This document shows positions 22,201 to 23,728 of a DNA stretch of 64,000 nt, piece by piece; within the stretch, counting starts at the first letter, position 1; every line of letters begins with the position of its first letter. The position numbers are program-made. The stretch lies in assembly GCF_055900595.2 (NCBI RefSeq), contig NZ_CM148325.1, one strand, 5' to 3'.

Positions 22201-23728
22201 GATTATTGATTCTCGTAGGATTAATTGTCGCCTGTCTGCTGTATGGCGTGATGACCAACGTTTTAGGGCTGGGAAAAGCCGTCGATTTTACTCTCGTCAG
22301 CCATGCTACCTGGTTCGGTCTGCCACATTTTTCCACTCCTGCTTTTAATGGTCAGGCAATGATGCTGATTGCGCCCGTGGCGGTGATTCTGGTGGCGGAA
22401 AACTTAGGTCATCTCAAGGCGGTCGCCGGGATGACCGGACGCAATATGGATCCATATATGGGGCGGGCATTCGTGGGCGATGGGCTGGCAACGATGCTTT
22501 CCGGCTCTGTCGGCGGTAGCGGCGTAACCACCTATGCTGAAAATATCGGTGTGATGGCTGTGACAAAAGTCTACTCGACGCTGGTGTTTGTTGCTGCTGC
22601 CGTCATCGCCTTGCTGTTGGGCTTTTCGCCGAAATTTGGCGCGCTGATCCATACCATTCCTGCACCGGTGATTGGTGGTGCTTCAATTGTTGTGTTCGGG
22701 CTGATTGCCGTCGCAGGCGCACGGATCTGGGTACAAAACCGTGTCGATTTAAGCCAGAACGGTAATTTGATTATGGTCGCAGTAACCTTAGTGCTGGGCG
22801 CGGGTGATTTTGCTCTCACGCTGGGCGGTTTTACGTTGGGAGGGATCGGTACAGCAACCTTTGGCGCGATTTTACTCAATGCGTTGTTGAGCAGAAGGTT
22901 GGTTGACGTTCCTCCGCCAGAAGTTGTTCATCAGGAACCATAAACAGAAAACCGCCGGGATTACCGGCGGTGCAGATTGTTGACAACGTGCGCATTGTTC
23001 ATGCCGGATGCGGCGTGAACGCCTTATCCGGCCTATAAAACAGTGCAAATTCAATATATTGCAATCTTCTGGTAGGCCTGATAAGCATCGCGCATCAGGC
23101 AAGCTTACATTTGTCATCAGTATCAACCGCCGGGGTAACCGGCGGTGATGGTTTTTTGACGAGCTACAGACAAAAATGCATGCGTCATTGATTAGCCCGG
23201 CTAGTTGTCGCTTTTGCCGTGACTGCTCTTGCCACCTTTTTTACCTGCTTCAGATGCGCGCTGCGGGTCATTTTTGAAATTACCCCCGCTGTGCTGTCCA
23301 CCTTTTTTACCTGCTTCTGATGCTCTTTCGCGGTCTTCTGCAAAATTGCCGGAACCGCCTCGATGGTTTGCCATTACTGACCTCCGTCTGGGTATAGACA
23401 TCATACTGCATAGAATTAACGCGGCGTATGGCGGCTGCCATATTTTCGCTACGTGGGACTAAGCTTAGTGAACTGACGCGGACAGACCCGCGTTTGGTAA
23501 TATCCTGCAACAGCTTCTTAGCGAGAATAGATATCATCTCCAATAATTATCCATAAGCCGCTCTTATGATTAAAAAAACGCGATGAGATAAAAATGTGTC
23601 ATTTTGCGACAAAATTGCGTGCTTGTGAAAGTTGTTATAAATCAAATAAGTGGTTGTGAAATTTGCACTCTGAAAAGGACGTCTTATCTTTAAATAAGTG
23701 GTAGCGAATCGCTACGGAATAGAGATAA

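What the first reader, a model, noticed from the sequence alone, without database searches (positions are those of the whole stretch)
22951..23157. Two near-identical 21-nt palindromes bracket the REP pair downstream of rutG
accgccgggattaccggcggt (22951..22971) and accgccggggtaaccggcggt (23126..23146) differ only in the loop and flank the REP pair at 23003..23102. Only the second is followed by a T-run. This looks like a duplicated terminator-like module around a BIME, possibly a composite extragenic element.
Basis: seen in the sequence. Interest (0 to 1): 0.2.

Follow-up and report, generated by a model that had tools for sequence, protein, structure and literature searches.

The report
Terminator hairpin duplicated by BIME-1 insertion
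The two palindromes are two copies of the single terminator hairpin shared by rutG and ymdF, duplicated when a 153-bp mobile BIME-1 repeat inserted there; most other BIME-1 copies examined show the same footprint, which points to how these long-unexplained repeats spread.

Summary
ACCGCCGG-GATTA-CCGGCGGT (22951-22971) and ACCGCCGG-GGTAA-CCGGCGGT (23126-23146) lie 175 bp apart and bracket a complete 153-bp BIME-1 (22973-23125: REP Y, IHF-type linker, REP Z1).

They are not part of a dispersed composite element, because the hairpin sequence occurs only at this locus. About two thirds of 5,400 E. coli genomes, and the outgroup E. whittamii, carry an allele exactly 175 bp shorter with one hairpin flanked by an A-run and a T-run. 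That allele is a bidirectional terminator. BIME-1 therefore inserted at this hairpin and duplicated the whole stem-loop, giving a 22-nt target duplication.

Each copy now keeps one T-run: hairpin 2 on the + strand for rutG and hairpin 1 on the - strand for ymdF. Both 3'UTRs should therefore run through the BIME-1.

The pattern is general. In 33-34 of 55 independent BIME-1 sites (Escherichia, Pseudocitrobacter) the element is abutted on both sides by a locus-specific duplicated hairpin of 12-29 nt. Three further sites have single-hairpin empty alleles.

The variable duplication length, set by the hairpin, implies cuts at the two sides of the hairpin. This mechanism is inferred. I found no description of it in the accessible literature, but key 1990s papers could not be read.

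The parts
21615..22943 (+). rutG coding sequence (pyrimidine permease), stop codon TAA at 22941-22943; the upstream one of the two convergent genes
   Evidence: ORF list. RefSeq annotation of identical or near-identical loci.
22942..22950 (-). T-rich tract (TTTCTGTTT on the - strand) directly after hairpin 1 when read on the - strand; the U-tract of the ymdF-direction terminator
   Evidence: The terminator scan reports the - strand site 22971..22951 with tail TTTCTGTTTA. The same A-run precedes the single hairpin in empty alleles.
22951..22972 (.). Hairpin 1, the left copy of the target-site duplication (ACCGCCGG GATTA CCGGCGGT +G). It acts as a terminator stem-loop for - strand (ymdF) transcription. 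For rutG it is the proximal hairpin and has no U-tract.
   Evidence: (D2). Predicted dG is -17.3 kcal/mol. Its loop is identical to the single hairpin of empty alleles L001/L002.
22973..23125 (+). Complete BIME-1 (RIP/RIB-type) element, 153 bp, with imperfect terminal inverted repeats CAGATTGTTGACAA ... TTGTCATCAGTATCA
   Evidence: Aligns end to end with BIME-1 copies at six other E. coli loci. Matches the 153-position HMM built from 57 copies. Absent, together with one hairpin copy, from 175-bp-shorter alleles.
23003..23035 (+). REP/PU of Y type (GCCGGATGCGGCGTGAACGCCTTATCCGGCCTA)
   Evidence: Inverted repeat I4. Invariant block in alignment A2. Weak Rfam naRNA4 match 22966-23033.
23036..23072 (+). 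L linker carrying the IHF-type site (AAATTCAATATATTGCA)
   Evidence: Conserved in all BIME-1 copies. Rfam ES036/CssrF match 23037-23079 at 38.5 bits, above the gathering score of 37.6. Ton-Hoang 2012 states that the BIME-1 L linker often carries an IHF site. Binding was not tested here.
23073..23102 (-). REP/PU of Z1 type in inverted orientation (TAGGCCTGATAAGCATCGCGCATCAGGCA)
   Evidence: Inverted repeats I5 and I8. Alignment A2.
23126..23147 (.). Hairpin 2, the right copy of the target-site duplication (ACCGCCGG GGTAA CCGGCGGT +G). It acts as a terminator stem-loop for + strand (rutG) transcription. For ymdF it is the proximal hairpin and has no U-tract.
   Evidence: Predicted dG is -17.3. 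It is partly decayed in K-12-type alleles (ACCACC-GGGTAACCGGCGGT).
23152..23157 (+). T-run (TTTTTT) downstream of hairpin 2, starting 5 nt after the stem
   Evidence: The same T-run follows the single hairpin in empty alleles (GATGACTTTTT).
23201..23374 (-). ymdF coding sequence (57-aa KGG-repeat stress protein), convergent with rutG
   Evidence: ORF list. RefSeq annotation. Pfam KGG on the called gene.

Best explanation
The two palindromes are the two copies of one ancestral intrinsic-terminator hairpin shared by the convergent genes rutG and ymdF. A 153-bp BIME-1 element (REP Y, IHF-type linker, REP Z1, with imperfect inverted ends) inserted at that hairpin. The insertion duplicated the whole stem-loop plus about 1 nt, giving a 22-nt target-site duplication.

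Shown: the ancestral site is A-run + hairpin + T-run. After insertion the left copy keeps the A-run, so it is a hairpin plus U-tract only for - strand (ymdF) transcripts. The right copy keeps the T-run, so it serves + strand (rutG) transcripts.

Inferred: each mRNA first meets a hairpin without a U-tract, reads through the BIME-1, and ends at the distal hairpin. The REPs and the IHF site then sit in both 3'UTRs, and the two transcripts overlap antisense by about 200 nt. The two 22-nt direct repeats also allow precise excision back to the one-hairpin allele.

Inferred mechanism of duplication: the duplicated length equals the hairpin length at every locus (12-29 nt) and abuts precise element ends. 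This suggests the two target strands were cut or joined at opposite sides of the hairpin (or extruded cruciform), with the gaps then filled. The REP-associated Y1 transposase (TnpA_REP/RAYT) is the obvious candidate enzyme, but this was not tested.
For: (1) Empty alleles exist. 1,733 of 5,425 E. coli genomes carry the full locus. Nearly all the others carry an allele exactly 175 bp shorter, in one alignment piece, across O157:H7, O121, O145, NU14 and others. Its sequence is CAGAAAACCGCCGGGATTACCGGCGGTGATGACTTTTT, which has one hairpin. No intermediate allele (two hairpins without BIME) appeared among 5,416 genomes.
(2) Outgroup. E. whittamii has a single hairpin AAAAAACCGCCGGAATTACCGGCGG next to ymdF.
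(3) The hairpin is locus-specific, whereas the 153-bp core is dispersed.
(4) The pattern is general. Of 55 independent near-complete BIME-1 sites, 33-34 have flanking direct repeats above the 99th percentile of mismatched-flank controls (Mann-Whitney p = 2e-18). In the first 44-site set, the 29 duplications have a median of 19 nt (range 12-29), abut the element with 0 gap at 23 of 29 left and 24 of 29 right junctions, and fold as hairpins with dG about -9 to -18.
(5) Three more sites have single-hairpin empty alleles: yqjF-yqjG, satP-mog and yccJ-agp, which is empty in this window and occupied with a perfect 25-nt duplication in E. whittamii.
(6) Terminator-like calls on opposite strands for the two copies.
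(7) Between duplicated copies, stems differ at 3.6% of positions and loops at 27% (Fisher p = 1e-11), with two compensatory pairs. This fits both copies being kept as hairpins. The two differences in this window are both in the loop.
Against: No transposition was observed, so the direction of change rests on parsimony and one outgroup, in which the rut operon is missing. Empty alleles carry the loops GATTA, GGTAA and GGCTA. The first two are the loops of hairpin 1 and hairpin 2 here, so some empty alleles could be secondary excision or recombination products. The known relatives of the candidate enzyme (IS200/IS605) insert without target duplication (Nunvar 2010). TnpA_REP cuts at C|T in vitro, which does not obviously match the junctions T|CAGATTG and CAGTCTCA|. 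About 40% of sites show no recognisable duplication. The correlation between element conservation and duplication quality is weak (rho 0.22, p = 0.11). The T-run after hairpin 2 starts 5 nt from the stem, so its efficiency as a terminator is uncertain. No RNA 3'-end data were examined.
Confidence: 0.85

Rival explanations
1. The two-hairpin + BIME-1 arrangement is the older state, and the one-hairpin alleles arose by deletion (slipped-strand or RecA-independent recombination) between the 22-nt direct repeats flanking a large palindrome.
For: The deletion is exactly repeat-to-repeat (175 bp). Direct repeats flanking palindromes are classic deletion substrates (own knowledge). Empty alleles carry either the hairpin 1 loop (GATTA) or the hairpin 2 loop (GGTAA), as expected for crossovers on either side of the loop. 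Bachellier 1997 is cited as reporting BIME-1 as present or absent among isolates.
Against: This does not explain where the second hairpin came from. The empty allele is the majority and spans many lineages, and E. whittamii has one hairpin. The same bracket occurs with different hairpins at dozens of sites, some with perfect copies, so the duplication is tied to arrival of the element. Excision probably happens as well, but as the reverse reaction.
Confidence: 0.08
2. The duplication was made by host replication or repair rather than by a transposase. For example, a fork stalls at the terminator hairpin and switches template to a BIME-1 copy elsewhere, or a BIME-1 fragment is captured at a break made at an extruded cruciform.
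For: Terminator hairpins and BIME-1 are both strong secondary structures. Loop inversions between the two copies (L029 TAAA/TTTA, L050 CAAG/CTTG) are the signature of quasi-palindrome template switching. No known Y1 transposase makes such duplications.
Against: Element ends are the same to the nucleotide at unrelated loci, and the duplications abut them with no filler. That is typical of site-specific cleavage rather than microhomology-driven switching. No homology between the targets and the element ends is apparent.
Confidence: 0.15
3. One reading: the palindrome is a component of a dispersed composite repeat (hairpin + REP pair + hairpin) that moves as a unit.
For: The architecture hairpin-BIME-hairpin recurs at many loci.
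Against: The hairpin sequence is different at every locus and is unique to rutG-ymdF in E. coli. Empty sites retain one copy.
Confidence: 0.02
4. There are two independent terminators, one per gene, and their similarity is due to chance or convergent selection.
For: Convergent genes often have separate terminators. Each copy has a T-run on a different strand.
Against: The arms are 16/16 identical and the repeat extends to 22 nt, whereas mismatched-flank controls have a 99th-percentile score of 9. The 175-bp indel polymorphism removes exactly one copy.
Confidence: 0.01

Closest known systems
BIME-1 (also called RIP / RIB elements) of E. coli: REP Y + L linker with IHF site + REP Z1
   Same: The sequence between the palindromes is a full-length member. 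It has Y and Z1 REPs in inverted orientation, a conserved L linker, is a single copy, lies at the 3' ends of genes, and is present or absent among strains.
   Different: The accessible descriptions treat BIME-1 as the REP pair plus linker and do not mention target duplication. Delihas 2011 says REPs lack MITE signatures, and Corneloup 2021 says the dissemination mechanism is not elucidated. Here the element has defined 153-bp ends and a duplicated target hairpin.
MITEs such as the Neisseria Correia element (about 150 bp, inverted ends, central IHF site, TA target duplication)
   Same: It is short and non-coding, has imperfect terminal inverted repeats (13 of 16) and an IHF-type site in the middle, is flanked by a direct duplication of target DNA, and shows insertion polymorphism.
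   Different: MITE duplications have a fixed short length set by the transposase (own knowledge; for the general definition). Here the length varies from 12 to 29 nt and equals the length of a target stem-loop.
IS200/IS605 elements and REPIN/RAYT systems (single-strand 'peel and paste' by Y1 HUH transposases)
   Same: It has subterminal hairpins (the REPs) about 20-30 nt inside each end, and it is associated with a RAYT in E. coli.
   Different: Those elements insert 3' of a short target sequence without duplication. The hairpin-length duplication seen here is not predicted by that mechanism unless both strands are processed symmetrically.
Repeat duplication at CRISPR spacer integration (Cas1-Cas2) and casposon target duplications
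   Same: An often palindromic target of tens of bp is duplicated because the two strand transfers occur at its opposite borders. In E. coli IHF takes part (own knowledge). This is the best analogy for a duplication whose length is set by the target structure.
   Different: No Cas1-like enzyme is implicated. The target here is any terminator hairpin, not a fixed repeat. This is an analogy only.
Bacterial class C group II introns, which insert just after intrinsic-terminator hairpins
   Same: The same class of target is used: a terminator stem-loop recognised as a structure, which makes a safe landing site at gene ends (own knowledge).
   Different: Those are retroelements that insert on one side of the hairpin without duplicating it.

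Membership tests
BIME-1 (RIP/RIB) | One Y-type and one Z1-type REP in inverted orientation | tested here: met
   Inverted repeats I4, I5 and I8. These blocks are invariant across seven loci. The Y/Z1 definition is from Ton-Hoang 2012.
BIME-1 (RIP/RIB) | Long conserved L linker carrying an IHF consensus | tested here: met
   AAATTCAATATATTGCA is conserved. The Rfam ES036/CssrF match is above its gathering score.
BIME-1 (RIP/RIB) | IHF actually binds the linker | not testable with these tools
   Known only from the literature cited.
BIME-1 (RIP/RIB) | [quoted passage not shown] | tested here: met
   Lies between the convergent genes rutG and ymdF. Full-length copies were found at six other E. 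coli loci, and 120 stretches of DNA matched the L+Z1 pattern in the genome scan.
Intrinsic (Rho-independent) terminator | G+C-rich stem-loop | tested here: met
   Each copy has 8 bp with 7 G-C pairs and a predicted dG of -17.3.
Intrinsic (Rho-independent) terminator | U-tract immediately 3' of the stem | tested here: inconclusive
   Hairpin 1 on the - strand is followed directly by TTTTCTGTTT (met). Hairpin 2 on the + strand has TTTTTT only after GATGG. Hairpin 1 on the + strand and hairpin 2 on the - strand have none.
Intrinsic (Rho-independent) terminator | Transcripts end there | not testable with these tools
   No 3'-end data for rutG or ymdF were found. Neither gene name occurs in the 2026 REP preprint.
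MITE (non-autonomous transposon) | Terminal inverted repeats | tested here: inconclusive
   (T)CAGATTGTTGACAAA against the reverse complement of TTTGTCATCAGTCTCA gives 13 of 16 matches. The repeats are imperfect.
MITE (non-autonomous transposon) | Flanking target-site duplication, with empty sites holding one copy | tested here: met
MITE (non-autonomous transposon) | Duplication of fixed length characteristic of the transposase | tested here: not met
   The length ranges from 12 to 29 nt and tracks hairpin size.
IS200/IS605-like / RAYT-mobilised REPIN | Inserts without target duplication | tested here: not met
   A duplication is present here and at 60% of sites. The expectation comes from Nunvar 2010.
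IS200/IS605-like / RAYT-mobilised REPIN | Mobilised by TnpA_REP | not testable with these tools
The in-vitro C|T cleavage sites do not map cleanly onto the junctions.
   There is no other copy in the window and a median of one place per E. coli genome, always at rutG.

The most novel reading that the evidence does not exclude
BIME-1 elements are structure-targeted mobile elements. They home to intrinsic-terminator hairpins and duplicate the entire stem-loop on insertion. The duplication is a target-site duplication whose length is set by the target's secondary structure rather than by the enzyme. This would be the first genomic footprint of how REP/BIME repeats spread, would predict the target for an in-vivo or in-vitro transposition assay, and would explain why these repeats sit at gene ends inside split bidirectional terminators. 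The probability given is for the pattern reflecting the insertion mechanism and not having been described already.
Probability: 0.45. Interest if true: 0.8.

Novelty: new variant of a known kind. Interest (0 to 1): 0.6.

Why it matters
REP/BIME repeats have been known for 40 years, yet a 2021 study still calls their dissemination mechanism unresolved. A consistent footprint has three parts: precise 153-bp ends, a target that is a terminator hairpin, and duplication of the whole hairpin. This footprint turns an open question into a testable one. It names the target to offer in a transposition assay and constrains the chemistry to two strand transfers at opposite sides of a hairpin.

It also has a direct regulatory meaning. 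Each insertion splits a bidirectional terminator into two one-way terminators and places the REPs and the IHF site inside both 3'UTRs. [quoted passage not shown]

For this locus alone the result is modest: a strain-variable 175-bp insertion that is reversible through its 22-nt repeats.

Tried and rejected
- I searched for other copies of the palindrome. The window has none, and in E. coli genomes it occurs only at the rutG locus. The composite-repeat idea is rejected.
- The Rfam scan gave only REP-derived families (naRNA4 below threshold, ES036/CssrF just above). These add nothing beyond the BIME identification.
- NC_000913 annotation of the region lists no repeat feature in this tool's table.
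- Other REP clusters in the window (6860-7159, 28908-29057, 48660-48723) show no bracketing duplicated hairpin. The bracket is therefore not a property of every REP array.
- I tested whether the right copy is an inverted rather than a direct duplicate. Direct scores higher in 23 of 29 cases, and asymmetric stems keep the same orientation. Fold-back duplication is rejected.
- I tested whether older elements have worse duplications. The correlation is only weak and not significant (rho 0.22, p = 0.11).
- I tried to map the TnpA_REP C|T cleavage sites onto the junctions, without a clean fit.
- Literature: six full-text searches and about ten papers were read. None describes hairpin duplication at BIME-1. 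Bachellier 1997, Boccard & Prentki 1993 and Gilson 1991 are not held, so prior description cannot be excluded.
- An exact-protein look-up of YmdF returned only E. coli-type contigs, with no new outgroup.

Full report
**Observation.** The window holds ACCGCCGG-GATTA-CCGGCGGT at 22951-22971 and ACCGCCGG-GGTAA-CCGGCGGT at 23126-23146. The arms are identical and the loops differ at two positions. The direct repeat extends to 22-23 nt, with a spacing of 175 bp (D2). A search for the arm pattern with up to two mismatches finds three hits in 64 kb against 0.05 expected, and none of 100 shuffles reaches three. The third hit (29492-29512) is unrelated.

**Setting.** rutG ends at 22943 on the + strand. 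The convergent 57-codon gene ymdF ends at 23201 on the - strand (RefSeq names). The consensus terminator scan calls hairpin 2 on the + strand (tail GATGGTTTTT) and hairpin 1 on the - strand (tail TTTCTGTTTA).

**What lies between the hairpins.** Positions 22973-23125 align end to end with repeats at six other E. coli loci: yqjF-yqjG, rnpB-yhaC, yiiE-fdhE, downstream of fepA, dppB-dppA and satP-mog. The unit has four parts:
- a left end CAGATTGTTGACAA;
- a Y-type REP (23003-23035);
- a conserved linker with the motif AAATTCAATATATTGCA (Rfam ES036/CssrF, just above its gathering score);
- an inverted Z1-type REP (23073-23102) and a right end TTGTCATCAGTATCA.

This matches the published definition of BIME-1: Y plus Z1, a long L linker that often carries an IHF site, and occurrence as a single copy (Ton-Hoang 2012). 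A profile built from 57 copies is 153 positions long, and the window copy is full length. The ends are imperfect inverted repeats, 13 of 16.

**The key result.** 1,733 of 5,425 E. coli genomes carry the whole locus. When the short allele is used as the query, 5,407 genomes match. The genomes without the insertion match in one piece, and the genomes with it match in two pieces spanning 174-175 bp more. The short allele reads CATAAACAGAAAACCGCCGGGATTACCGGCGGTGATGACTTTTTGACG. It has one hairpin preceded by an A-run and followed, after GATGAC, by a T-run.
- The long allele therefore equals the short allele plus a BIME-1 plus a second copy of the hairpin.
- No allele with two hairpins and no BIME appeared.
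- The short allele occurs in O157:H7, O121, O145, O43, NU14 and many others, while K-12 and BL21 carry the long one.
- E. whittamii, where rutR abuts ymdF and the rut genes are absent, has a single hairpin AAAAAACCGCCGGAATTACCGGCGG beside ymdF.

The simplest history is insertion of BIME-1 at a pre-existing terminator hairpin, with duplication of that hairpin.

The 35-nt empty-site sequence finds a median of one place per genome in 5,412 genomes, always at rutG. The palindrome is not a dispersed repeat, so the composite-element reading fails its own refutation test.

**Generality.** The first alignment already showed the same bracket with other hairpins.
- At yqjF-yqjG: ACGAGGAGGAACACTCCTCGTT | element | ACGAGGAGAAACGCTCCTCGTTTTTG.
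- At satP-mog: CCCCCCGCTCGAAGGGAT | element | CCCCCCGCTTGGGGGGATTTTTTT.

I then scanned one genome per species for the L-linker + Z1 pattern. This fetched 120 loci from E. albertii, E. whittamii, Escherichia sp. E1V33, two E. coli and three Pseudocitrobacter genomes.
- With ends located by motif, 57 copies fell into 44 independent sites. At 29 of these the 35-nt left and right flanks share a direct repeat scoring above the 99th percentile (9) of mismatched left/right pairs.
- With ends located by a profile HMM, 75 near-complete copies fell into 55 independent sites. At 33-34 of these (60%) the score exceeds that threshold (Mann-Whitney p = 2e-18).
- The duplications have a median of 19 nt (range 12-29). 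They abut the element with no intervening base at 23 of 29 left and 24 of 29 right junctions, and fold as hairpins of about -9 to -18 kcal/mol.
- Several are perfect. Examples are AAGCCTCCGCAAGCGGAGGCTT (L060), AACCTCGCATCGCGAGGTTT (L049) and TCCCCCGCTTCTCGCGGGGGAGTTT (L106).
- 44 of 55 sites have a stable hairpin directly next to the element on at least one side, against 8 and 3 of 55 for flanks 30-60 nt away.
- Copies whose ends the motif search missed show further examples (L099, L047, L079, L038, L026, L100 and others). They also include a tandem array of hairpin-BIME-hairpin-BIME-hairpin (L088).

**Empty sites at other loci.**
- yqjF-yqjG is occupied in 78 genomes. Elsewhere it reads GATAAAAAACGAGGAGGAAGCTCCTCGTTTTTGC.
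- satP-mog is occupied in 467 genomes. Elsewhere it reads ATCCCCCCGCTCGGGGGGATTTTTTT.
- A third case lies in this very window. The yccJ-agp spacer (24598-24622, ACTCCCCCGCTTCACGCGGGGGAGT followed by TTTCTG) is an empty site in all E. coli. It holds a BIME-1 with a perfect 25-nt duplication in E. whittamii and a decayed one in E. albertii.

**Direct, not inverted.** The hairpins are palindromes, so a fold-back (inverted) duplication had to be excluded. The direct comparison scores higher in 23 of 29 cases, and asymmetric stems keep their orientation.

**Evolution after insertion.** Between the two copies, stem positions differ at 3.6% and loop positions at 27% (Fisher p = 1e-11). Two pairs changed on both sides while keeping the base pair (L024, L121). 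Detection bias favours similar pairs. Even so, the contrast suggests either that both copies are kept as hairpins or that loops are mutation hot spots. In this window both differences are in the loop. In K-12-type alleles hairpin 2 has begun to decay (ACCACC-GGGTAACCGGCGGT).

**How it most likely works.**
- Shown: the architecture, the polymorphism and the strand-specific T-runs.
- Inferred for the RNA: the ancestral hairpin served both genes. Its fit is good for ymdF, where the T-run is directly after the stem on the - strand. Its fit is poorer for rutG, where the T-run is 6 nt away. After insertion, each gene's proximal hairpin lacks a U-tract and its distal hairpin has one. Both mRNAs should therefore read through the BIME-1 and end about 200 nt further on, overlapping each other.
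- The region folds far better than shuffles, with z = -7.0 on the + strand and -4.2 on the - strand. It folds either as local hairpins or, on the - strand, as one long fold-back in which arms of the two hairpin copies pair with each other.
[quoted passage not shown] Both findings would follow from this architecture.
- Inferred for the DNA: a duplication that equals the hairpin at every site and abuts invariant element ends implies two strand transfers at opposite sides of the hairpin or cruciform, followed by gap filling. The logic is the same as repeat duplication at CRISPR spacer integration (own knowledge).
- The base before the element is T at 40 of 55 sites. This is consistent with joining within the first bases of the T-tract.
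- The REP-associated Y1 transposase is the natural candidate. However, its relatives make no duplication, and its in-vitro C|T sites do not map cleanly onto the junctions. This step is a hypothesis.
- The 22-nt repeats should also permit precise excision. Empty alleles carrying GATTA or GGTAA loops hint that this happens, or that alleles recombine.

**Comparison with what is known.** The element is an ordinary BIME-1, and its presence or absence among strains is known. I could not find the duplicated target hairpin in any accessible paper. Delihas 2011 states that REPs lack MITE signatures. [quoted passage not shown] Ton-Hoang 2012 proposes integration next to existing REPs. The original French papers of the 1990s could not be read. 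One of them sequenced empty BIME-1 sites, so prior description cannot be excluded.

**Verdict.**
- At this locus the thing is a strain-variable BIME-1 insertion with a 22-nt hairpin duplication.
- The general rule it reveals is the interesting part. I rate it moderately high, with the caveats that the mechanism is inferred and that novelty is uncertain.

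Noticed in passing
window 24598-24622 (yccJ-agp spacer): This single hairpin ACTCCCCCGCTTCACGCGGGGGAGT plus TTTCTG is an unoccupied BIME-1 target. The same site holds a BIME-1 with a perfect 25-nt hairpin duplication in E. whittamii (L106) and a decayed one in E. albertii (L018). All 5,400 E. coli genomes checked are empty.
   Followed up: yes
L029, L050 vs L060 (flanks of BIME-1): In two sites the two hairpin copies have identical stems but reverse-complemented 4-nt loops (TAAA/TTTA and CAAG/CTTG). In L060, the site orthologous to L050, both loops are CAAG. This looks like loop inversion by intra-hairpin template switching.
   Followed up: partly
L136, L137, L139, L140, L142 (empty rutG-ymdF alleles): Single-hairpin alleles carry loops GATTA, GGTAA or GGCTA. 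The first two are exactly the loops of hairpin 1 and hairpin 2 in the window. This suggests that some empty alleles are excision products or that alleles recombine within the hairpin.
   Followed up: partly
L088 (Escherichia sp. E1V33) and L013 (E. albertii): Both hold two BIME-1 copies in tandem. In L088 the arrangement is hairpin-BIME-1-hairpin-BIME-1-hairpin with the same hairpin CAATGCCGGGCTTAAACCCGGCATT three times; in L013 the flanks were not resolved into hairpin copies. Either the duplicated hairpin was hit again or the unit was amplified by unequal exchange.
   Followed up: no
L106 1-1700 (E. whittamii): A 212-aa ORF of the size and position expected for rutR (not checked by any search) lies directly next to ymdF. 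The rutABCDEFG genes seen in the window are absent there, although the ymdF-side hairpin is kept.
   Followed up: partly
L006 vs L132/L133 (yqjF-yqjG): The empty allele has a 4-nt loop (GAAG), but both copies in the occupied allele have 5-nt loops (GAACA and AAACG). The occupied allele may have been imported from a diverged lineage; E1V33 also has the site occupied (L079).
   Followed up: no
window 23223-23350 (- strand, inside ymdF): There is a 62-nt direct repeat with 66-nt spacing at 73% identity. It corresponds to the two KGG-type repeats of the small stress protein YmdF (D1; Pfam KGG).
   Followed up: no
window 6860-7159 and 28908-29057: These are tandem REP arrays with a 99-100-bp period (BIME-2-like or atypical). 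They show no bracketing duplicated hairpin, unlike BIME-1.
   Followed up: partly
L034, L035, L094, L095, L096: Exact E. coli-type BIME-1 sequence occurs on short contigs (three of 261-264 bp, one of 1.9 kb, one of 6.2 kb) in assemblies labelled Bacteroides, Desulfosporosinus, Alkalicoccobacillus, Methylobacterium and Collinsella. This is most likely enterobacterial contamination or mis-binning.
   Followed up: no
window 22880-23220 and 24400-24800: The window is 100% identical to E. coli strain Z0117EC0005 (from a dog) over these stretches. It is only 95-96.5% identical to K-12, and only 22 records are at least 99% identical at the rutG-ymdF stretch. This is an uncommon allele of the region.
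   Followed up: no
window 29492-29512: ACCGCCGCTGTGAGCGGCGGT is a hairpin with arms two mismatches away from the rutG palindrome, followed by TCGCTTTTT. It is probably an unrelated terminator. No REP lies next to it; the nearest is about 450 bp away.
   Followed up: partly
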